Positions 700 through 16,200 are shown, counted from the first letter of the stretch. The stretch: 36,774 nucleotides of DNA from a virus (IMGVR_UViG_2778261162_000005); one strand, 5' to 3'. Made by a program: numbers and translations. The notes: a model not told the origin generated them from the sequence alone.

Positions 700-834
700 A
701 TACTAAACATTAGTTAAATCATGGCTTTTGCCATTTTTATACTTTTTTTACACCCCGCCCGCAGATTTTTGCGAAATCTTTGCAGCCAGAATTCTACCCT
801 TCCGGTATCACTTTTAGGCCACTGGAGGTGCACT
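700..834 (+). promoter_or_regulatory. kdpFABC promoter region with putative KdpE operator
   Basis: AT-rich region directly upstream of kdpF containing T-rich direct repeats CATTTTTATACTTTTTTTTACACCCCGCCCG (about 733-765), which matches my recollection of the KdpE binding site. Confidence 0.45.
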
Positions 835-924
835 GTGAGTGCAGGCGTGATAACCGGCGTATTGCTGGTGTTTTTATTACTGGGTTATCTGGTTTATGCC
901 CTGATCAATGCGGAGGCGTTCTGA
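835..924 (+). CDS. kdpF: Potassium-transporting ATPase subunit F
   Basis: GTG start at 835; 29-aa hydrophobic peptide (M)[28 protein letters not shown]; stop overlaps kdpA start (TGATG). Confidence 0.8.
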
Positions 925-2132
925 TGGCTGCGCAAGGGTTCTTACTGATCGCCACGTTTTTACTGGTGTTAATGGTGCTGGCGCGTCCTTTAGGCAGCGG
1001 GCTGGCGCGGCTGATTAATGACATTCCTCTTCCCGGTACAACGGGCGTTGAGCGCGTACTTTTTCGCGCACTTGGCGTCTCTGACCGTGAGATGAACTGG
1101 AAGCAATATCTTTGTGCCATTCTCGGCCTGAACATGCTGGGGCTGGCGGTGCTGTTTTTTATGTTGCTCGGTCAGCACTATCTGCCGCTTAATCCACAGC
1201 AGTTGCCGGGGCTGTCGTGGGATCTGGCGCTGAATACCGCCGTCAGCTTTGTCACGAATACCAACTGGCAATCTTACAGCGGTGAAACCACGTTGAGCTA
1301 TTTCAGCCAGATGGCTGGCTTAACGGTGCAAAACTTTCTTTCTGCCGCCAGCGGGATTGCGGTGATTTTTGCCCTCATCCGTGCGTTTACCCGCCAGAGC
1401 ATGAGCACACTCGGGAATGCCTGGGTCGATCTGCTACGCATCACGTTATGGGTGCTCGTCCCTGTGGCGTTGTTGATCGCACTGTTTTTTATTCAACAAG
1501 GTGCGCTGCAAAACTTTCAGCCTTATCAGGCTGTGAATACCGTTGAAGGAGCGCAACAGCTGTTACCCATGGGGCCTGTAGCTTCTCAGGAAGCGATCAA
1601 GATGCTCGGTACTAACGGCGGTGGCTTCTTTAATGCCAACTCGTCGCATCCGTTTGAAAACCCAACCGCACTGACCAACTTCGTGCAGATGCTGGCGATC
1701 TTCTTGATCCCAACGGCGCTGTGCTTTGCCTTTGGTGAAGTGACGGGCGATCGCCGCCAGGGGCGCATGTTGCTGTGGGCGATGTCAGTGATTTTTGTCA
1801 TCTGCGTAGGCGTGGTGATGTGGGCAGAAGTTCAGGGTAATCCTCATCTGCTGGCGCTCGGCGCAGACAGCAGCATCAATATGGAAGGTAAAGAGAGCCG
1901 TTTCGGCGTGCTGGTCAGTAGCCTGTTTGCGGTCGTGACTACGGCGGCTTCCTGTGGCGCGGTGATTGCGATGCATGATTCGTTTACCGCTCTCGGTGGC
2001 ATGGTGCCGATGTGGCTGATGCAAATTGGTGAAGTGGTGTTCGGCGGTGTCGGTTCTGGTCTTTACGGCATGATGCTGTTTGTCCTGCTGGCGGTGTTTA
2101 TTGCCGGGCTGATGATTGGTCGTACACCGTGA
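924..2132 (+). pseudogene. kdpA: kdpA (potassium-transporting ATPase subunit A) truncated by prophage insertion; 402 codons retained
   Basis: ATG at 924 overlapping kdpF stop; multi-pass membrane protein [16 protein letters not shown]...MIGRTP then TGA at 2130. Intact KdpA is about 557 aa (recalled) and continues EYLGKK after GRTP; here non-kdp sequence follows. Confidence 0.85.
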
Positions 2133-5697: not shown

Positions 5698-5970
5698 TCA
5701 GTGCTTCCGGTCAACAATGATGTGCAGGTCGCCTTCTGCAGTGATTTCCATCCGGTACGGCACCTCGTGCTCTGCCGCGTGGGTGAGTGTGTTCACTAGT
5801 ATCTGCAGGGCGGCCTCCTTTCCGTTAGTCGCCACAATGGCCTGCGTGGCCATGCTGATTAACGCCGTCAGGGCGCACATGATATCGGTGAGGTCACGGC
5901 ATTCACACTCGTTGAGATACCGTTCAACAAGGGCGCGGGTGCGCTGATGTGCTTCCTGTGGGGTAATCAT
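5698..5970 (-). CDS. Hypothetical early protein (90 aa)
   Basis: ATG 5970 with GGGAGG upstream; ATGA overlap with the upstream gene stop. Confidence 0.4.
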   Translation of the reverse strand: MITPQEAHQRTRALVERYLNECECRDLTDIMCALTALISMATQAIVATNGKEAALQILVNTLTHAAEHEVPYRMEITAEGDLHIIVDRKH

Positions 5971-6161
5971 TGCGCTTCCTCCCTGTCAGGGCGGGAGAAT
6001 TCCATAACGGGCACATCTGCCGAAAAATGCTGACTGCAGTACGGACAGACCAGGGTGACGCGTACTGCAGGTACGTGGTATTTACCGGACATCACGGCGA
6101 TGGCGCTGTGAAAACGCAGGGCTGTTATATCCCTCTCGCACTGAATACATTTAAATATCAT
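5967..6161 (-). CDS. Small Cys-rich (zinc-ribbon-like) protein
   Basis: 64 aa with CIQC...CPYC pairs; GAGGAGAA upstream of ATG 6161. Confidence 0.45.
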   Translation of the reverse strand: MIFKCIQCERDITALRFHSAIAVMSGKYHVPAVRVTLVCPYCSQHFSADVPVMEFSRPDREEAQ

Positions 6162-11321: not shown

Positions 11322-11510
11322 TCAGGCTGCCTGAGCTGTTGATTTCAGCCCCAACTTCACGGCGATTTCATGGGATTTACCGTAACGGGCTTTGGTCTGC
11401 CCATTGAGAACGCGGTATACCTCATTGCGGTTGTAGCCGTTTTCTTCTGCCCAGCGGGTGAAAGTGATCCCGCGCTGGCGGAAGAGAGCTTTGACTTGTT
11501 CTGCAGTCAT
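11322..11510 (-). CDS. Ner/Cro-like small DNA-binding protein, first gene of the early operon
   Basis: 62 aa; AAGGAGA 6 nt upstream; divergent from the repressor gene, the position Ner occupies in Mu. Confidence 0.5.
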   Translation of the reverse strand: MTAEQVKALFRQRGITFTRWAEENGYNRNEVYRVLNGQTKARYGKSHEIAVKLGLKSTAQAA

Positions 11511-11610
11511 CGTTGTCTCCTTTGTTGATGCAATGATGTTTGCCTTATGTGTGATAGATTATGGTGCAGATTATCTCACCAGTCAACTTAAAGAGTGCAG
11601 AAAAACTCAC
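11511..11610. promoter_or_regulatory. Divergent early/repressor promoter-operator region
   Basis: 100-bp gap between divergent starts; contains direct repeats AGATTAT (x2) within TGATAGATTATGGTGCAGATTATCTCA. Confidence 0.45.
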
Positions 11611-11949
11611 ATGATCGGGTTACGTATTAAAGAAGAAAGAGAGCGTCTATCTCTTACACAGCAAGGGTTGGCTGATGCTATAGGTGTGGCAAAGAGAACT
11701 TTCATTGATTGGGAAAAAGATCGCACTTCTCCTACTGCAGTGCAGTTATCTGCACTATCAGAAATCGGTGTAGATATTTTGTATGTAGTTACTGGGGTGC
11801 GGAGTCAGCCTGTTGTTGCACCTTATGTGTCACAAGAAAAGAAAGAGTTAATGGATGCATTCGACGAAATGAGCCCCGAACAACGGAGGGCAATTCTTGA
11901 GGTCGGCAAAGTCTTCATTCAACCCAAACCAAGCAAACTCGCAGGCTGA
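11611..11949 (+). CDS. XRE-family HTH repressor (c-like)
   Basis: MIGLRIKEERERLSLTQQGLADAIGVAKRTFIDWEKDRTSP is a typical XRE HTH; divergent from the early operon. Confidence 0.6.
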   Translation: MIGLRIKEERERLSLTQQGLADAIGVAKRTFIDWEKDRTSPTAVQLSALSEIGVDILYVVTGVRSQPVVAPYVSQEKKELMDAFDEMSPEQRRAILEVGKVFIQPKPSKLAG

Positions 11950-12035
11950 TTTTGACCTGGACACAAAGGGCGCGTGGTTGATCTGGATGCTTTCAGAAAA
12001 CATCGCCAGTGACATAGTGGAAGTTGTTTGGTTTA

Positions 12036-12065
12036 CCGGAAAGCATTGTGCTTTCCGGTTTTGTT
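12036..12065 (+). terminator. Rho-independent terminator after the repressor gene
   Basis: CCGGAAAG-CATTGTG-CTTTCCGG followed by TTTTGTT, between convergent repressor and Dam genes. Confidence 0.55.
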
Positions 12066-12829
12066 CAGAAGTTGCAGATTACCAGTTCACGGCGTGGCGT
12101 GGGTTTCCCCGCCAGACTGTAGTTGATATTCACCGTCTGTATGTTCAGTTCAGTGAACACCCGACGCATCTGCGGAATGTCATTCACCGAGATAATCATC
12201 TTTCCTCTGATGCACCGTGCCAGTTCTGCGAGTAGTGTGTAGTTCTCTTCAGGAAAATCCACACCATAGCCTTCCGTCCCCAGATAGGGCGGATCACAGT
12301 AGAACAGCGTGTGCGGACGGTCATAACGCTTAATGCACTGGTGCCAGTCCATGTGTTCTATCACCGTTCTGGAAAGCCGCAGGTGTGCCGCTGACAGTTC
12401 TTCTTCAATCCGTAGCAGGTTGAAGCGTGGCGGGGAGGTGGTGGAGGTGCCGAAGCTGTGCTCTGCCACCTTGCCCCCAAACGCCTGCTTCTGGAGGTAG
12501 TAGAACCGTGCCGCACGCTGGATATCCGTCAGTGTTTCTTCCGGGGTGATCTGCAGCCATTTGTAGATCTGCCGGCTAACCAGCGCCCATTTGAATTGGC
12601 GGACAAATTCTTCCAGATGATGCTTTACTACCCGATACAGATTTACCAGTTCACCGTTGATATCGTTAATGACTTCGATCTTGCTGGGAGTCTTGAGAAA
12701 ATAAAGTGCTGCTGCGCCGCAGAATGGCTCCACATAGCAGGTATGGAGTGGGAACTGAGGCAGAATGTGTTTGGCCAGACGACGTTTTCCCCCAATCCAG
12801 GGGACGATGGGTAAAGATTGTTCTTTCAT
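12065..12829 (-). CDS. DNA N6-adenine methyltransferase, Dam-like (D12 class)
   Basis: Start at ATG 12829 (MKEQSLPIVPWIGGKRRL...); FCGAAAL AdoMet motif and DPPY catalytic motif. Confidence 0.8.
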   Translation of the reverse strand: MKEQSLPIVPWIGGKRRLAKHILPQFPLHTCYVEPFCGAAALYFLKTPSKIEVINDINGELVNLYRVVKHHLEEFVRQFKWALVSRQIYKWLQITPEETLTDIQRAARFYYLQKQAFGGKVAEHSFGTSTTSPPRFNLLRIEEELSAAHLRLSRTVIEHMDWHQCIKRYDRPHTLFYCDPPYLGTEGYGVDFPEENYTLLAELARCIRGKMIISVNDIPQMRRVFTELNIQTVNINYSLAGKPTPRRELVICNF

Positions 12830-12935
12830 TATCTGTAAGCCTTTTTCATTAGATGAAAATGCGATAGGCTTCCCTTGTTCTCGAGAACGGAAGAGCCTCG
12901 GTTGACTCACAGCTCATACCTGTAAGTTGATGACT
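12786..12935. repeat. Direct repeat copy 1 (Dam 5' end plus upstream region)
   Basis: Aligns by hand with 13419-13565; shared blocks CCAATCCA.GG.ACGATGGGTAA, TTTCAT.ATCTGTAA and CCTCGGT.G.CTCACAG..CAT.CCTGT. Confidence 0.6.
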
Positions 12936-12964
12936 CGCCTTGTGTTCGCTGCACAAGGTGAGTC
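12932..12964. promoter_or_regulatory. Imperfect palindrome upstream of P1 (hairpin or operator)
   Basis: GACTCGCCTTGTG-TTCGCTG-CACAAGGTGAGTC followed by GCTCTTTTC; GACTC/GAGTC motif occurs three times in 12903-12964. Confidence 0.4.
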
Positions 12965-13023
12965 GCTCTTTTCATGTTATTTGCATATTTCATGGGCGAC
13001 AATTAAAGGGAGTTACTAATACC

Positions 13024-13404
13024 ATGGCCCCAAAAAATATTGAGCGGTTTAATGAAATAGTTGGTGAGATATTTGGGAGACTCTACGAATCTTTCCCCGT
13101 CAAAATTGATATAAAGGCAGTTGATATCGTTAGACAGAATGAACTTACTTTTTTTCTTGATACCGTAGACTGGCTTAAAAACAGTGGCTATTTAATCGGG
13201 GCGCGTAGTTCTGGGGGGATCCACAACGCAGTGCTAACGGCTAAAGGTCTTGAGGTATTAAACGCTACGCCTGGAAGTCTGGAAAAACCGTTGGGGGCCA
13301 GAATATCTGACTCTATAAAAATTGAAGGGAAAGAAGCGTTGCGATCACTGGTTAGCCAGACTCTAGGAATAGGTCTGCAATATATGTCTCGTGGTCTTAT
13401 GTAA
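13024..13404 (+). CDS. Hypothetical protein P1 (126 aa), paralog of 13868-14272; unknown family
   Basis: ATG 13024 (MAPKNIERFNEIVGEIFGRL...); body visibly AT-rich; shares GxIFxRL, F(L/I)DTxxWL and VLTxKxLxxLNAxP motifs with P2. Confidence 0.6.
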   Translation: MAPKNIERFNEIVGEIFGRLYESFPVKIDIKAVDIVRQNELTFFLDTVDWLKNSGYLIGARSSGGIHNAVLTAKGLEVLNATPGSLEKPLGARISDSIKIEGKEALRSLVSQTLGIGLQYMSRGLM

Positions 13405-13464
13405 TATCGCAAGGCAGCGTTTGCCACCAATCCATGGAACGATGGGTAATGTCTGCGTTTTCAT
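13363..13464 (-). pseudogene. Truncated Dam 5' fragment (copy 2)
   Basis: Minus-strand ATG 13464: MKTQTLPIVPWIGGKR matches the Dam N-terminus, then the frame runs into the antisense of the P1 3' end and stops after 33 codons. Confidence 0.55.
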
Positions 13465-13565
13465 AATCTGTAAACATTTTACAATTATTAAAAATATGGC
13501 AGGCTAGTCTGGTCTCACGAGACTGACTGAACCTCGGTCGGCTCACAGTGCATTCCTGTGGGACG
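13419..13565. repeat. Direct repeat copy 2 (Dam 5' fragment plus upstream region)
   Basis: See copy 1; same orientation, immediately 3' of P1. Confidence 0.6.
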
Positions 13566-13609
13566 ATGGCCAGCCCGGCTTTCGGGTGCCGGGCTGGTCG
13601 TTCTTTCAT
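13562..13609 (-). pseudogene. Dam 5' fragment (copy 3) interrupted by a 28-bp palindrome
   Basis: Minus strand ATGAAAGAAC...CCATCGTCCC matches the Dam start, with CCAGCCCGG-CACCCGAAAG-CCGGGCTGG inserted between; on the plus strand the palindrome is followed by TCGTTCTTTC (terminator-like). Confidence 0.5.
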
Positions 13610-13653
13610 GATGCGGCAGGGATAGTGGGATTTCTGTTAATGCGGTTTAGGGA

Positions 13654-13869
13654 TTATCCGGGGTGATTTTCTGACCTTATCTGGTCCAGGGCGTAAGTGA
13701 GCCCTTCTGCAAAAACAGAAGTATCAAACTGCTTTTGTATTTCCTGAAAATGAACAGTGGCACGACAGATACTCAGTTCTCCGCGATGTAACCGGATAAT
13801 ATCTTCCAGAACATTGTTCACTGCTTCAGCACGGCGCTGATGTTCTGTTAACGTTAATCGGGGATTCAT
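13654..13869 (-). CDS. Hypothetical small protein (71 aa)
   Basis: ATG 13869 with AAGGAG 7 nt upstream; charged, helix-prone; its start overlaps the P2 start on the opposite strand. Confidence 0.35.
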   Translation of the reverse strand: MNPRLTLTEHQRRAEAVNNVLEDIIRLHRGELSICRATVHFQEIQKQFDTSVFAEGLTYALDQIRSENHPG

Positions 13870-14272
13870 GATGCACTCCTTAAATGATGATTTTTATGTA
13901 CTCACCGGCAAAATATTCTGCCGATTACTGAACACGCATCCGGTACCTCAGGTTTTGATTTATTCTGGTTTTTTCGATATCCCGGACCAGGTTGATCACG
14001 ACCAGAAAAAGTGCCGGTATTTTATTGATACGCTGATATGGCTTCGGGATAACAGCTATATTCGTTACTCTCAGTTGCTGGCTGTGGGAGCGGCTGATGT
14101 CGTCCTCACGGAAAAAACGCTCTGTCTGCTCAATGCCATGCCGACCTTTCTGCAGCCCCGGCCCGTGCCATTTAAAGAGTCGCTTCTGGATGCAGTAAAA
14201 ACCGGTGAAAATGCAGTCATCGCTGAATGCGTATCCCGGATTATGCGTTACGTGTTTAATGAACGTAAGTGA
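13868..14272 (+). CDS. Hypothetical protein P2 (134 aa), paralog of 13024-13404; unknown family
   Basis: N-termini of P1 and P2 align without gaps from the first Met (F9, G14, I16, F17), supporting this start. Confidence 0.55.
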   Translation: MMHSLNDDFYVLTGKIFCRLLNTHPVPQVLIYSGFFDIPDQVDHDQKKCRYFIDTLIWLRDNSYIRYSQLLAVGAADVVLTEKTLCLLNAMPTFLQPRPVPFKESLLDAVKTGENAVIAECVSRIMRYVFNERK

Positions 14273-14991
14273 GGTTTATCCGTTGTCTGCATAATCCCGA
14301 TAGCCAGTGCGAGGGGAAGCAATTCCGGGGAAACTTTTTCAAACAGCGATTCCCATTCTCCTCTCGCCATCACTCTGTCCAGCCCGCCCTCCAGCTGCAT
14401 TTCAGCAATCTTCCTGATTTCCCGGAACAACGCCGCTTTGATCTCTTCATGCTCAGCTTTATTTTCCGGTGTCAGAATGTATTCGTCGAAGAACCGGGGA
14501 GGCTGGTTAACGGGGATTGTGTTCACCGGGATGTGTTCCTGCTTCCCGTACTTCGGGGCCGAAAAACATTCTGTTGGCTGACCAGCGAGTTTACGTAACT
14601 CCTTCATGAGCAGCTCCTGATCGTAAACTGTCATCAGTGCCGCAATGGTGGCATGCAGTGCATCGGGCAGTATCCAGGGTTGCCGGCCCGTGGGGCATAT
14701 AACATCCAGCAGCTCATTCGTCCGACAGATACGCTCCTCGCCGTATGACAACAGGCCCTGTCCCGTGTATTCCTCCAGCCTGATCACTGTGCCAGCCCGT
14801 GGCTTCTGCCAGGTCGTCAGATCATCGCCACTCATACGGCGCTCATTCTCCACGTCAGCAGCATCGACAATGACGCTGTTTCCGAGTTCCTGTTTCACCA
14901 TCTCTTCTATCCGCGCCAGTACGTAACTTTTACCGCTGCCCACAGGACCGGACACAGTGACAGTGATGACCGGATTCAGTGTGTGCGTCAT
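14248..14991 (-). CDS. P-loop NTPase / kinase-like protein of unknown type
   Basis: 247 aa; Walker A GPVGSGKS at residues 15-22, Walker B-like VIVDAAD; C-terminal about 170 aa without recognisable motif. Confidence 0.6.
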   Translation of the reverse strand: MTHTLNPVITVTVSGPVGSGKSYVLARIEEMVKQELGNSVIVDAADVENERRMSGDDLTTWQKPRAGTVIRLEEYTGQGLLSYGEERICRTNELLDVICPTGRQPWILPDALHATIAALMTVYDQELLMKELRKLAGQPTECFSAPKYGKQEHIPVNTIPVNQPPRFFDEYILTPENKAEHEEIKAALFREIRKIAEMQLEGGLDRVMARGEWESLFEKVSPELLPLALAIGIMQTTDKPHLRSLNT

Positions 14992-15121
14992 ATCGTATTC
15001 TCCTCTGTGAATAATTCATCGTTTATCCTGCACACCCCGTATCCCCGGCTCTCTTAACGCGCTTTAAAATCCTTCGCGCCCTGTATTTGTGATGCTGTCT
15101 CCACCAGACAAGGAGACACAC

Positions 15122-15472
15122 ATGAAAAGCCTGAAAAAATTCATTCCCCCTGTTAAAAAACCTCGCCTCAGCGGCTGGCTGCTGACCTCAGTGCTGTTGC
15201 TGGGCACCATCGCTCTGGTCTCGCCACAGCAGTTGCCTGTTGTGATCTACAAGCTGGCACTCATCACGCTGGCAGCAGTGCTGGGTTACTGGCTTGACCG
15301 TTCGCTCTTCCCCAAAGCCCGTCCCGGTCAGTACCTGAAACATGACGACAGGCTGATGGCTGAAGGGCGTTTCCCTGTGCAGACCGGCCTTCACCTTGTG
15401 TTTGCTGCTGCGTTAATCCGCCGTGCACTGATTGTTGCAGCGATCTGTCTGGCTGTGGCAACAGGACTGTGA
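15122..15472 (+). CDS. Putative holin (3 predicted TM segments)
   Basis: 116 aa, GGAGA RBS; three hydrophobic helices; first gene of the lysis cassette. Confidence 0.5.
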   Translation: MKSLKKFIPPVKKPRLSGWLLTSVLLLGTIALVSPQQLPVVIYKLALITLAAVLGYWLDRSLFPKARPGQYLKHDDRLMAEGRFPVQTGLHLVFAAALIRRALIVAAICLAVATGL

Positions 15473-15474
15473 CC

Positions 15475-16200
15475 ATGAACTGGCCTCAAATCACCCTCAT
15501 TATTCTGTTCGCCTTTGGTCTGGGCGTAACCGCCATCAGACACGGAGAACCACGTAACGATAAATACAGCTTCTGGTGGCAACTTACTGGCAACCTGGTG
15601 ATTGTCTGGCTGCTCTGGTGTGGCGGCTTCTTCAGTCAGGCCCGCGCAGCGCAGCCTCCGCAGGCTGCGCTGCAGTATCGCGATGATGTGATCCGTAATG
15701 CCCGGCTTGAATGGGGACTGTCTGCGCCGGTGGCTGATTTCGCTGCGCAACTGCATCAGGAAAGCGGCTGGCGACCTGATGCGATCTCGCCGGCTGGCGC
15801 TCAGGGACTGGCGCAGTTTATGCCTGCCACTGCCGACTGGATAAGCCAGTTGATGCCGGCGCTGAGCAGTCGAGAGCCGTTTAATCCGGCATGGGCTATC
15901 CGGGCGCTGGTCAGTTATGACCGCTGGCTGTGGCAGCGCGTCAGCGCCGCCAACGACTGCGAGCGTATGGCCATGACACTGTCGGGCTATAACGGTGGTC
16001 TGGGCTGGGTACAGCGGGACAGGCAACTTGCATCACAGAAAGGGCTGGACCGTACCCGCTGGTTCGGACATGTCGCCACGGTGAATGCCGGACGCAATGC
16101 TGCCAGCTGGCGGGAGAACCGTCATTATCCCCAGCGCATCCTGTTCACGCTGGCCCCGCGTTATCTCTCATGGGGAGGGGCAAGCTGTGTGGGTACGTAA
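15475..16200 (+). CDS. Lytic transglycosylase endolysin (SLT domain) with two N-terminal TM segments
   Basis: ESGWRPDAISPAGAQGLAQFMP is the SLT catalytic signature; about 55 aa of two hydrophobic helices precede it. Confidence 0.7.
   Translation: MNWPQITLIILFAFGLGVTAIRHGEPRNDKYSFWWQLTGNLVIVWLLWCGGFFSQARAAQPPQAALQYRDDVIRNARLEWGLSAPVADFAAQLHQESGWRPDAISPAGAQGLAQFMPATADWISQLMPALSSREPFNPAWAIRALVSYDRWLWQRVSAANDCERMAMTLSGYNGGLGWVQRDRQLASQKGLDRTRWFGHVATVNAGRNAASWRENRHYPQRILFTLAPRYLSWGGASCVGT

What the first reader, a model, noticed from the sequence alone, without database searches (positions are those of the whole stretch)
11950..15121. Accessory island between repressor and lysis genes: Dam MTase, two divergent paralogs, Dam-start remnants and an unclassified P-loop NTPase
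About 3 kb between the repressor terminator and the holin has no counterpart in the conserved Mu-type modules. It holds a Dam-like MTase (-), small ORF P1 (+), two truncated Dam 5' fragments, orf71 (-), P2 (+, paralog of P1) and a convergent P-loop NTPase (-). The P1 body is visibly AT-rich against its flanks. I cannot place P1, P2, orf71 or the C-terminal 170 aa of the NTPase in any named family from sequence alone. Prophages typically carry defence or anti-defence cargo in such positions, so this is my best candidate for an undescribed system; the function is inference only.
Basis: partly seen in the sequence, partly recalled or inferred. Interest (0 to 1): 0.85.

Follow-up and report, generated by a model that had tools for sequence, protein, structure and literature searches.

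The report
Prophage variable region with regulated Dam
This 3-kb stretch of an E. coli Mu-like prophage is a patchwork of independently swapped accessory genes, not one new system; its one interpretable unit is an anti-restriction DNA methylase preceded by a conserved, apparently undescribed RNA switch.

Summary
The genes are real: Dam methylase, P1, orf71, P2 and a P-loop protein lie between the repressor and the holin of a BcepMu-like E. coli prophage. P1 and P2 are paralogs, and the block varies while its flanks stay fixed.

They are not one system. The orf71-P2 pair, solo P1, the P-loop gene and dam each occur without the others in related phages. None of the four unknowns matches a known defence model.

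P2 models as a winged-helix protein from a mostly acidic family. The 'NTPase' is a 75-residue mini P-loop module fused to shuffled C-terminal modules.

Dam does have a Mu counterpart. It is 63% identical to the phage B3 methylase that follows a Com gene, the analog of Mu com-mom.

Only one Dam-start remnant is genuine, a recombination scar. The 'second' is the 5' end of a conserved ~150-nt structured leader RNA.

That leader has two mutually exclusive pairings, and one covers the dam ribosome-binding site. Both are supported by covariation. It precedes dam (or com-dam) in many proteobacterial genomes and phages, and 67 of 68 pattern matches in viral contigs are followed by dam. Rfam has no match for the window copies.

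A defence role for the unknown genes is untested.

The parts
12035..12059 (+). Terminator-like hairpin after the repressor gene (11491-11949), just beyond the dam stop codon
   Evidence: Terminator scan. Repressor matches HTH_3.
12065..12829 (-). Dam-family (D12 class) N6-adenine DNA methyltransferase, 254 aa, with a DPPY motif
   Evidence: PF02086 at 97.8 bits; PADLOC MTase_II 9e-113; phrog_56. 63% identical to phage B3 ORF48. pN/pS 0.11 against other E. coli alleles.
12827..12976 (-). Structured dam leader RNA, copy A (in front of the intact dam). Multi-hairpin element with two alternative pairings of CUGUGAG: with the upstream CUUACAG, or with the CUUACAG next to the ribosome-binding site.
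   Evidence: Covariance model R1 at 151 bits. Covariation counts. Fold z-score -3.9.
12774..13408 (.). 635-bp block absent from the common E. coli allele (ABU 83972 / PhiKM type). It holds a diverged dam 5' end, leader copy A and the P1 cassette. The unique insert is 12924-13408.
   Evidence: blastn against ABU 83972, PhiKM and Salmonella loci. The P1 cassette is in only 6 of 5426 complete E. coli genomes.
13024..13404 (+). P1, 126 aa, a solo member of the winged-helix phrog_2266 family and paralog of P2
   Evidence: A 95%-identical homolog sits at the same place in a Salmonella prophage.
13409..13464 (-). Genuine dam 5' remnant (first ~19 codons of the ABU-type allele), a recombination scar
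   Evidence: Direct repeat D1. The copy-B duplicated segment that contains it (13409-13559) is 96% identical to ABU 83972.
13462..13611 (-). Structured dam leader RNA, copy B (orphan).
   Evidence: Covariance model R1 at 131.7 bits. Leader comparison.
13654..13869 (-). orf71 (phrog_4490). Its start codon shares a CATG with the P2 start, and an AAGGAG Shine-Dalgarno lies inside the first P2 codons.
   Evidence: 36% identical to the Serratia 73-aa ORF at the same position. pN/pS about 1.2-1.5 from very few changes.
13868..14272 (+). P2, 134 aa, a winged-helix protein of a mostly acidic family. Its 3' end overlaps the 3' end of the P-loop gene by 25 nt.
14248..14991 (-). Mosaic protein, 247 aa (phrog_3787). 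It has an N-terminal 75-aa mini P-loop module (14767-14991) plus C-terminal modules that are shuffled among relatives.
   Evidence: pN/pS 0.29.
15122..15472 (+). Holin, the first gene of the conserved lysis and structural operon (right flank)
   Evidence: PF13272 at 1.9e-40.

Best explanation
The interval is the hypervariable accessory region of an enterobacterial BcepMu-like (Bcepmuvirus-type) prophage. It is built from at least four independently exchanged modules, not one system.

(1) Leader plus dam. This is a phage DNA adenine methylase in the role Mu gives to mom: modifying phage DNA against restriction. Its translation is gated by a ~150-nt structured 5' leader. In that leader the strand CUGUGAG pairs either with an upstream CUUACAG, leaving the ribosome-binding site free, or with an identical CUUACAG that abuts the Shine-Dalgarno GG and the AUG, occluding it. 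Shown: the methylase family, the homology to B3 ORF48, conservation of the leader, covariation of both pairings, and the link between leader and dam. Inferred: the anti-restriction role, the timing of expression, the direction of the switch and what flips it.

(2) orf71-P2. This is a portable divergent gene pair whose start codons overlap. It is shared with P2-like phages, where it sits between the portal gene or genome end and the replication gene gpA, next to varying neighbour genes.

(3) P1. This is a solo paralog of P2. An old recombination brought it in together with a second dam 5' end and leader, leaving the dam remnant and an orphan leader copy. The same junction is also present in a Salmonella prophage.

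(4) A protein with a 75-residue mini P-loop module and shuffled C-terminal modules. It is the first gene of the leftward unit that diverges from the holin.

My best guess (inference) for P1 and P2 is that they act as small acidic winged-helix proteins that bind another protein rather than DNA. Their targets are unknown.
For: Identity and spread:
- 100% match to E. coli M-17. The region matches in 636 of 5426 complete E. coli genomes.
- Phage PhiKM, the closest phage record, is classified as Bcepmuvirus.

Independent assortment:
- Serratia prophages carry dam, a 73-aa ORF and a 139-aa P2-like ORF. In place of the P-loop protein they have only an 89-aa ORF equal to its C-terminal module.
- P0036-type prophages have the P-loop gene directly before dam.
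- Fifteen BcepMu-like viral-contig loci (L014-L028), found through the P-loop N-domain, show many different contents.
- A Salmonella prophage lacks orf71, P2 and the C-terminal third of the P-loop protein.
- A Brenneria prophage has the P2-like gene co-directional with, and downstream of, the repressor-like HTH gene.
- P2-like phages carry the pair next to Fic, DinI or a reverse-transcriptase-like gene.
- A family member is a lone Vibrio integron cassette.
- In complete E. coli genomes P1 is in 6 and orf71-P2 in 499.

Dam:
- Family assignments.
- 63% identical to B3 ORF48, which lies behind Com ORF47. PMC3299994 notes that B3 carries this Com-plus-methylase pair instead of a Mom homolog.
- com-like zinc-finger ORFs lie between leader and dam in some relatives.

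Leader:
- Found in Dam-sense orientation in about 60 of 80 unbiased dam loci from Gamma-, Beta- and Deltaproteobacteria. Also found in phages phi1026b, KS9, VP882 and B3.
- 90.5% of cells paired against 78.5% when shuffled. 22 of 32 pairs show double changes. Covariation score 0.371 against 0.171 (0 of 500 shuffles), and at most 0.08 with slid partners.
- The alternative hairpin, which was not in the model, is 96.1% paired with 26 double-change cells.
- G-U pairs exceed A-C by 60 to 17 in the helix that covers the ribosome-binding site, which points to the sense strand.
- 67 of 68 pattern matches in viral contigs are followed by dam. In 66 the dam start lies 46-80 nt downstream of the matched core; in one it lies 701 nt downstream, as expected for an orphan-copy arrangement like the window's.

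P2 and the P-loop protein:
- P2 fold and charge.
- P-loop module and mosaic structure.
Against: - No expression data exist. Promoters, transcript ends and the timing of dam, orf71, P2 and the P-loop gene are unknown.
- The promoter scan found no more sites than chance.
- The leader alignment was fitted to the model, which inflates the pairing counts. The independent hairpin test has only 5 pairs.
- Hairpin 1 shows no strand bias (25 G-U against 30 A-C). On the opposite strand it looks like an intrinsic terminator.
- The opposite strand of the phi1026b leader scores 44.4 bits against Rfam ctRNA_pGA1, whose cut-off is 45. An antisense RNA could therefore be the real or an additional regulator.
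- Independent assortment does not rule out functional cooperation where the genes do co-occur.
- orf71 shows no purifying selection among close alleles, though on very few changes.
- The sequence specificity of Dam and its anti-restriction role are untested for this subfamily.
Confidence: 0.6

Rival explanations
1. The whole block (Dam, P1, orf71, P2, P-loop protein) is one integrated, undescribed defence or anti-defence system.
For: - All the genes sit together in a variable region between conserved modules.
- Four of the five belong to families of unknown function.
- The orf71-P2 pair lies next to defence-like neighbours (Fic, a reverse-transcriptase-like gene) in P2-like phages.
Against: - Each component occurs without the others in related phages.
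- The genes are on mixed strands, with convergent and divergent overlaps.
- There are no significant PADLOC matches apart from Dam as a generic methylase.
- Dam with its leader is a self-contained module in siphophages and plasmid prophages that lack the other genes.
Confidence: 0.07
2. orf71-P2, and P1 alone, are self-standing defence, exclusion or anti-defence cassettes. The acidic winged-helix protein binds and blocks a host or phage protein, and orf71 is its partner or regulator through the overlapping divergent promoters.
For: - Family median pI is 4.8, with 47 of 53 members acidic.
- The putative recognition helix is hydrophobic, not basic.
- The genes recur in accessory positions of two unrelated phage families and as an integron cassette.
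- The 2-nt start overlap is kept even where the proteins are only about 30% identical.
Against: - There is no functional test and no match to any defence or anti-defence model.
- The fold is generic.
- The small ORFs of P2-like phages show no detectable sequence similarity to orf71.
- One viral contig keeps orf71 but has lost P2.
Confidence: 0.3
3. P1 and P2 are ordinary DNA-binding winged-helix transcription regulators, for example of orf71, the leftward unit or late genes.
For: - Weak profile similarity to FabT and YjcQ.
- The divergent layout with orf71 resembles a regulator and its target.
- The Midge homolog is annotated as a putative transcriptional regulator.
Against: - The family is acidic and the 'recognition' helix has no net positive charge.
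- There is no Pfam HTH hit, not even to DUF2513.
- The second helix of a canonical helix-turn-helix is replaced by a variable, low-confidence loop.
- There is no intergenic operator region, because the start codons overlap.
Confidence: 0.2
4. The conserved element upstream of dam works mainly from the opposite strand. In this reading it is a small antisense RNA (ctRNA-like) or a terminator of antisense transcription, rather than a sense-strand switch.
For: - On the opposite strand hairpin 1 is followed by a conserved U-rich tract, and the terminator scan calls it at 12931-12965.
- Hairpin 1 has no strand bias.
- Rfam ctRNA_pGA1 scores 44.4, 29.5 and 29.4 bits on the antisense strand of three relatives.
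- The opposite strand folds equally well, z-score -4.1.
Against: - G-U pairs exceed A-C by 60 to 17, 13 to 8 and 17 to 6 in the three downstream helices.
- The element always ends at the start codon of dam or com.
- The same strand covaries with two alternative partners.
- No Rfam hit reaches its threshold, and there is none in the window.
- The two readings can coexist: an antisense RNA could be what flips the sense switch.
Confidence: 0.25

Closest known systems
Mu com-mom operon and its methylase-bearing analog in phage B3 (ORF47 Com + ORF48 DNA adenine methylase)
   Same: - A phage DNA-modification enzyme.
- The window Dam is 63% identical to B3 ORF48.
- Relatives carry a com-like zinc-finger ORF between the leader and dam.
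- An RNA structure occludes the translation start, as at mom (established knowledge; PMC3299994, PMC6483171).
   Different: - The window has no com gene next to dam.
- The gene lies between repressor and lysis genes, not at the genome end.
- The ~150-nt multi-hairpin leader lies upstream of com where com exists, so it is not the Com-binding hairpin itself.
- According to PMC3299994 (2011), the activity of B3 ORF48 had not been shown experimentally.
Hia5 / Hin1523 / Nma1821 non-specific adenine methylases of Mu-like prophages (PMC3299994)
   Same: Adenine methylases that occupy the mom position of Mu-like prophages. They protect DNA from many restriction enzymes and are thought to be under Com-type control.
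   Different: This is a separate subfamily: the paper reports that B3 ORF48 was not among the 1000 sequences most similar to Hia5. Whether the window enzyme is GATC-specific or relaxed is unknown.
Rfam RF00236 ctRNA_pGA1 (plasmid counter-transcript RNA)
   Same: Two hairpins plus a U-tail. The antisense strand of the 5' half of the phi1026b dam leader scores 44.4 bits, E about 7e-8 for the 301-base stretch searched.
   Different: The score is below the gathering cut-off of 45. There is no hit for the window copies or for most relatives. The match is on the opposite strand from the one favoured by G-U pairs, and the context is a phage dam leader, not a plasmid rep leader.
Variable accessory ('moron' or hot-spot) loci of temperate phages, such as the old/tin region of P2 (from general knowledge, not tested here)
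   Same: Conserved flanks with interchangeable cargo. The orf71-P2-type pair sits in the corresponding region of P2-like phages, between the portal gene or genome end and gpA, next to varying neighbours.
   Different: No cargo gene here matches a described defence family.
Winged-helix domains (Z-alpha, RPA32C, Rrf2/IscR, cullin WHB) and DUF2513/YjcQ-like phage proteins
   Different: No Pfam DUF2513 match for the window proteins or P0031. The family is acidic and has two extra C-terminal helices.
Minimal P-loop proteins (designed 'phosphate-loop protein' 6c2u, de novo ATPase 9jix)
   Same: These are the best PDB sequence matches to the 75-aa module. The module has a strand, P-loop, helix, strand layout with the Walker A motif GPxGxGKS.
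   Different: Those are artificial proteins. The similarity is confined to the Walker A segment, and no natural family or activity is assigned.

Membership tests
Dam / D12-class N6-adenine DNA methyltransferase | Pfam PF02086 match above the gathering score | tested here: met
   97.8 bits against a cut-off of 22, covering residues 11-234.
Dam / D12-class N6-adenine DNA methyltransferase | Catalytic DPPY motif and AdoMet motif FxGxG | tested here: met
   The sequence shows FYCDPPYLG. Motif I reads EPFCGAAA, that is FxGxA, a variant.
Dam / D12-class N6-adenine DNA methyltransferase | NCBIfam TIGR00571 'dam' cut-off, and the E. coli Dam equivalog NF008152 | tested here: not met
   112.8 bits against 114.85, a narrow miss. 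65 bits against 441 for the equivalog. It is a phage subfamily, not the host Dam.
Dam / D12-class N6-adenine DNA methyltransferase | GATC specificity and methyl-transfer activity | not testable with these tools
   Needs a methylome or restriction-protection assay.
Mu com-mom type translational control | Small zinc-finger Com ORF immediately upstream of the modification gene | tested here: not met
   There is no CxxC...CxxC ORF near dam in the window. One is present in relatives and in B3.
Mu com-mom type translational control | RNA secondary structure that sequesters the ribosome-binding site or start of the regulated gene | tested here: met
   The helix CUGUGAGYC:GGCUUACAG abuts the AUG. It is 90.7% paired with covarying positions, and G-U pairs exceed A-C by 60 to 17.
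Rfam RF00236 ctRNA_pGA1 | Score at or above the gathering cut-off (45 bits) | tested here: not met
   No hit in the window at E up to 10. The best relative scores 44.4 bits on the antisense strand, and others score 29.5 or less.
Riboswitch (ligand-sensing leader) | Specific ligand binding that changes the fold | not testable with these tools
   Only two covarying alternative structures and conserved unpaired stretches are shown.
P-loop NTPase | Walker A motif GxxxxGK[ST] | tested here: met
   GPVGSGKS at residues 15-22. G15, G20 and K21 are invariant in the family alignment. Some relatives read GxxxxGKN.
P-loop NTPase | Walker B motif and a complete alpha/beta core assignable to a known P-loop family | tested here: inconclusive
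   - A hhhhEE-like VIRLEE lies at residues 69-74.
- All Pfam P-loop matches are below threshold and cover only residues ~4-56.
- The conserved module is 75 aa and stands alone as 70-83-aa ORFs.
- The single-sequence model is unusable, pLDDT 41.
Winged-helix DNA-binding regulators / DUF2513 | Winged-helix fold | tested here: met
Winged-helix DNA-binding regulators / DUF2513 | Sequence membership (a Pfam HTH or DUF2513 model) and a basic DNA-binding surface | tested here: not met
   No Pfam match. Family median pI is 4.8, and the helix-plus-wing segment of P2 has net charge 0.
Known anti-phage defence systems (PADLOC-DB 2.0) | Significant match of a component to a defence-system model | tested here: not met
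   P1, P2 and orf71 have no matches. The P-loop protein has only E of 0.015 or weaker on its Walker A segment. Dam matches generic methylase models.
Type II toxin-antitoxin pair (for orf71-P2) | Co-directional bicistronic operon of a small toxin and antitoxin | tested here: not met
   The genes are divergent and share a CATG at their starts. There are no matches to toxin or antitoxin families.

The most novel reading that the evidence does not exclude
The ~150-nt dam leader is an undescribed class of phage riboregulator. In this reading it is a two-state switch at the ribosome-binding site that senses a metabolite, a protein or a cognate antisense RNA. It would time anti-restriction methylation in many temperate phages of Proteobacteria. 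Alongside it, the acidic winged-helix family (P1, P2, with or without orf71) and the 75-residue mini P-loop family would be new single-gene defence or anti-defence effectors.
Probability: 0.15. Interest if true: 0.85.

Novelty: new variant of a known kind. Interest (0 to 1): 0.5.

Why it matters
Splitting the island into modules changes which experiments make sense. The cassettes should be tested one at a time, not as a single block.

The dam module ties BcepMu-like, B3-like, phi1026b-like and VP882-like phages to the Mu com-mom logic. In that logic a toxic DNA-modification enzyme is kept under tight translational control.

The module also supplies a concrete RNA element, supported by covariation and with predicted ON and OFF pairings. 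Point mutations and compensatory changes can test it directly.

If the leader proves to be a regulated switch, it would explain how Com-less phages time their anti-restriction methylation. It would also add a widespread phage RNA family that Rfam does not capture.

The winged-helix family and the mini P-loop family recur in phage accessory loci, and the winged-helix family also occurs as an integron cassette. They are reasonable but unproven candidates for new phage-host conflict genes.

Tried and rejected
- Single-sequence AlphaFold of the P-loop protein gave pLDDT 41 and was unusable.
- The afdb50 fold library was not available.
- The Foldseek search of viral structures gave nothing significant for P2.
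- PDB sequence and profile searches gave only Walker-A matches for the P-loop module and insignificant winged-helix hints for P1/P2. They gave nothing for orf71.
- Literature searches for the RefSeq protein accessions, for DUF2513, for BcepMu or Mu-like prophage defence hot spots, and for 'D12-methyl' found nothing relevant.
- Rfam scans of the window found no family for the leader.
- The idea that 13560-13609 is a second dam fragment was rejected, because its ATG is not conserved and it aligns as leader.
- The idea that the Salmonella arrangement was the donor of P1 was rejected. That locus has the same scar plus a later deletion.
- A conserved antisense promoter (TAGGCT as a -10 box) was considered by eye. 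It is not kept in all lineages, so it stays a hypothesis.
- pN/pS for orf71 and P2 among E. coli alleles rests on too few changes to be informative.

Full report
**What the window is.** The 3.2-kb interval is 100% identical to the chromosomes of E. coli M-17 and three other strains. Megablast finds a match to it in 636 of 5426 complete E. coli genomes. The closest phage record is Escherichia phage PhiKM, classified as Bcepmuvirus.

The flanking genes fit a BcepMu/Mu-type transposable prophage:
- a transposase with an rve domain;
- an AAA_22 ATPase like Mu B;
- a Gam homolog;
- a DUF3102 protein;
- an IclR-type HTH protein;
- an HTH_3 repressor at 11491-11949(+);
- then the holin at 15122-15472, an SLT endolysin and the late genes.

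**Check of the observation.** The five genes exist as described, and RefSeq annotates them the same way:
- Dam, 12065-12829(-);
- P1, 13024-13404(+);
- orf71, 13654-13869(-);
- P2, 13868-14272(+);
- the P-loop protein, 14248-14991(-).

P1 and P2 are paralogs (28% identity, E=4e-12), and both belong to phrog_2266. orf71 is phrog_4490 and the P-loop protein is phrog_3787, both of unknown function. Pfam, NCBIfam and PADLOC give nothing significant for P1, P2 or orf71. They give only sub-threshold Walker-A matches for the P-loop protein. The P1 region is 41-43% GC against 47-57% around it.

**The 'Dam-start remnants'.** Compared with the common allele (ABU 83972, PhiKM), the window carries an extra block.
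- Window 11400-12923 and 13409-15495 both align to ABU 83972. They overlap there by 151 bp, so 12774-12923 and 13409-13559 are two diverged copies (71% identical) of the dam 5' end plus its upstream region.
- The 485-bp P1 cassette lies between the two copies.
- Copy B is 96% identical to ABU 83972. Copy A is 98% identical to a Salmonella prophage.
- So 13409-13464 is a genuine remnant of about 19 dam codons, left by recombination between two phage lineages.
- The Salmonella locus has the same scar, plus a later deletion of 13666-14525 that removed orf71, P2 and the C-terminal third of the P-loop protein.
- The P1 cassette is in only 6 complete E. coli genomes. orf71-P2 is in 499.

**The genes do not travel together.**
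- Serratia BcepMu-like prophages have dam, a 73-aa homolog of orf71 (36% identity) and a 139-aa homolog of P2 (53%). Where the P-loop gene would be, they have only an 89-aa ORF that matches its residues 182-233.
- Other enterobacterial prophages have a P-loop-type gene followed directly by dam, with neither orf71 nor P2.
- Fifteen BcepMu-like IMG/VR loci (L014-L028), recovered through the P-loop N-domain, show many combinations. These include loss of dam, and loss of P2 with orf71 retained.
- A Brenneria prophage has a P2-like gene downstream of, and co-directional with, the repressor-like HTH gene, with no orf71 or P-loop gene.
- In P2-like phages (FSL SP-004, Midge, Klebsiella ST147-VIM1phi7.1 and widespread Salmonella prophages), a 143-145-aa homolog of P2 is paired with a divergent 63-64-aa ORF. 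The same 2-nt start overlap is kept. The pair lies between the portal gene or genome end and gpA, next to changing neighbours: Fic, DinI, a reverse-transcriptase-like gene.
- A family member is a lone cassette in Vibrio vulnificus superintegrons.

This pattern argues for separate modules rather than one multi-gene system.

**P1, P2 and orf71.** A 53-sequence family alignment gave a confident model of P2, with pLDDT 86.9.
- The model is a winged helix (helix 5-23, strand 28-31, long helix 42-61, wing 69-80) followed by two C-terminal helices.
- The family is acidic: median pI 4.8, with 47 of 53 members below pI 6. The helix-plus-wing segment of P2 has no net positive charge.
- I therefore favour a protein-binding role over a classical DNA-binding one. 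This is inference.
- orf71 has a perfect AAGGAG Shine-Dalgarno inside the first P2 codons, and P2 has GGGGA inside orf71. The two mRNAs must therefore overlap at their 5' ends.
- Among close E. coli alleles, orf71 shows pN/pS of about 1.2-1.5, based on only 10-12 changes. Its coding status rests mainly on the Serratia homolog and the PHROG family.

**The 'P-loop NTPase'.** An exhaustive HMMER search found 54 relatives. Beyond close E. coli alleles, nearly all share only residues 1-75.
- That module has the Walker A motif GPxGxGKS, a conserved E50, W61 and P64, and a hhhhEE-like VIRLEE at 69-74.
- It stands alone as complete 70-aa and 83-aa ORFs in other phage contigs.
- The C-terminal part is modular. 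Residues 82-135 recur at the C-terminal end of P0036 and P0038. Residues 182-233 recur alone in the Serratia ORF. A 48-aa module present in 11 relatives at different positions is missing here.
- The gene is under purifying selection, pN/pS 0.29.
- The best PDB matches are designed minimal P-loop proteins.
- No activity can be assigned. Some relatives have GxxxxGKN instead of the canonical Walker A.

**Dam and its leader.** Dam is a D12-class enzyme with a DPPY motif, under strong purifying selection.
- It is 63% identical to ORF48 of Pseudomonas phage B3, which follows the Com homolog ORF47. It is 61-68% identical to the methylases of phi1026b, KS9, VP882 and many other temperate phages.
- Published work places such methylases in the role of Mu mom, as anti-restriction modification under Com-type translational control (PMC3299994).
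- Comparing the DNA upstream of dam in unrelated hosts showed a conserved ~150-nt element whose hairpins keep their pairing while their sequences change.
- A covariance model built from 15 enterobacterial copies finds the element in about 60 of 80 dam loci that were collected without regard to it (Gamma-, Beta- and Deltaproteobacteria). It is always in the Dam-sense orientation. It ends at the dam start codon, or at the start of a com-like ORF where one intervenes, as in B3.
- In the window it occurs twice: 12827-12976(-) before the intact dam, and 13462-13611(-) before the dam remnant.

**Evidence for the leader structure.** On 51 sequences:
- 90.5% of cells pair, against 78.5% when shuffled.
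- 22 of 32 pairs show changes on both sides.
- The covariation score is 0.371 against 0.171 (0 of 500 shuffles), and at most 0.08 when partners are slid.

This alignment was fitted to the model, which favours the structure.

A second pairing that was not in the model is 96.1% paired with 26 double-change cells. It joins CACAG at columns 68-72 with CUGUG at columns 85-89. The same CUGUG(AG) strand also pairs with GGCUUACAG, which contains the Shine-Dalgarno GG and abuts the AUG. Position 88 covaries with both partners.

In the window copy the upstream and downstream partner strands are the identical heptamer CUUACAG. A similar triple involves AGGCU, AGCCU and AGGCU.

G-U pairs outnumber A-C by 60 to 17 in the helix that covers the ribosome-binding site. 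That supports a sense-strand RNA.

In IMG/VR, a degenerate core pattern has 68 exact matches. 67 are followed by dam: in 66 the dam start lies 46-80 nt downstream, and in one it lies 701 nt downstream, as expected for an orphan copy like the window's copy B.

**What flips the switch is unknown.** There are three candidates.
- A Com-like protein. None lies next to dam in the window.
- A ligand.
- An antisense RNA. Hairpin 1 has no strand bias, and on the opposite strand it is followed by a conserved U-rich tract that the terminator scan calls. The antisense strand of the phi1026b leader scores 44.4 bits against Rfam ctRNA_pGA1, just under its cut-off of 45. Two other relatives score about 29 bits.

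The window copies have no Rfam match, even at E up to 10.

**Verdict.** The interpretation as one undescribed system is not supported.

The region is a mosaic accessory locus. Its one interpretable unit is a mom-like methylase module with a conserved leader RNA, supported by covariation, that has no match in Rfam or in the literature I could search. The remaining genes belong to uncharacterised phage families whose functions are open.

I rate the whole as a new variant of a known kind. Interest is moderate and is carried mainly by the leader RNA and the two small protein families.

Noticed in passing
window 12827-12976(-) and 13462-13611(-); also L137 1195-1336, L138 1351-1494, L139 1337-1491, L140 1351-1494: A conserved ~150-nt structured leader lies upstream of dam, or of com-dam, in many proteobacterial prophages and phages. 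It has two covarying, mutually exclusive pairings, one of which covers the ribosome-binding site. The window copies have no Rfam match.
   Followed up: yes
L138 1349-1427(-), L075 1335-1410(-), L004 5707-5783(+): The antisense strand of the 5' half of the leader resembles Rfam ctRNA_pGA1 (44.4, 29.5 and 29.4 bits; cut-off 45). This hints at a counter-transcript, or at a shared two-hairpin-plus-U-tail design.
   Followed up: partly
window 780-2132(+): This ORF is KdpA, cut off at profile position 394 of 548. The prophage appears to have inserted into the host kdpA gene, as expected for a transposable phage. The left prophage end should lie between about 2133 and 2360.
   Followed up: partly
window 5955-6149(-): A small ORF with two CxxC pairs (FKCIQC ... 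VCPYC) lies in the early region beside the Gam gene. The spacing of the pairs differs from Mu Com. It was not analysed further.
   Followed up: no
L137 1067-1292 (phage B3 ORF45 and ORF46): In phage B3 the leader match (1195-1336) overlaps the end of ORF45 (1067-1198) and covers ORF46 (1212-1292). These are tiny annotated 'hypothetical proteins' of 43 and 26 aa that may be annotation artefacts.
   Followed up: partly
L010 4556-5506(-) and 5484-5792(-) (Klebsiella phage ST147-VIM1phi7.1): The gene annotated 'polymerase' next to the orf-P2-like pair carries a YVDD motif typical of reverse transcriptases. It is followed by an HTH gene, so it may be a reverse-transcriptase-based defence cargo.
   Followed up: no
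L048-L050 4001-4492 (Vibrio vulnificus): A 163-aa member of the P1/P2 family is a single-gene cassette in chromosomal integron arrays. In L049 a cassette with a true Pfam DUF2513 match lies beside it.
   Followed up: partly
L014 5746-6001 (IMG/VR contig): In this relative P2 is deleted down to an 18-codon stub, while orf71 and the P-loop gene remain intact.
   Followed up: partly
L029 4989-5240 and L030 4986-5198: The 75-aa mini P-loop module occurs as complete stand-alone ORFs of 83 and 70 aa in unrelated phage contigs. In L030 it lies near an HNH-motif ORF and a probable terminase gene (read by eye, not searched). These would be unusually small natural Walker-A proteins.
   Followed up: partly
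L078 2932-3023(-) and 3112-3202(-): Two near-threshold matches to the C4 antisense RNA family (39.7 and 39.2 bits; cut-off 45) lie downstream of dam in a Chromobacterium prophage.
   Followed up: no
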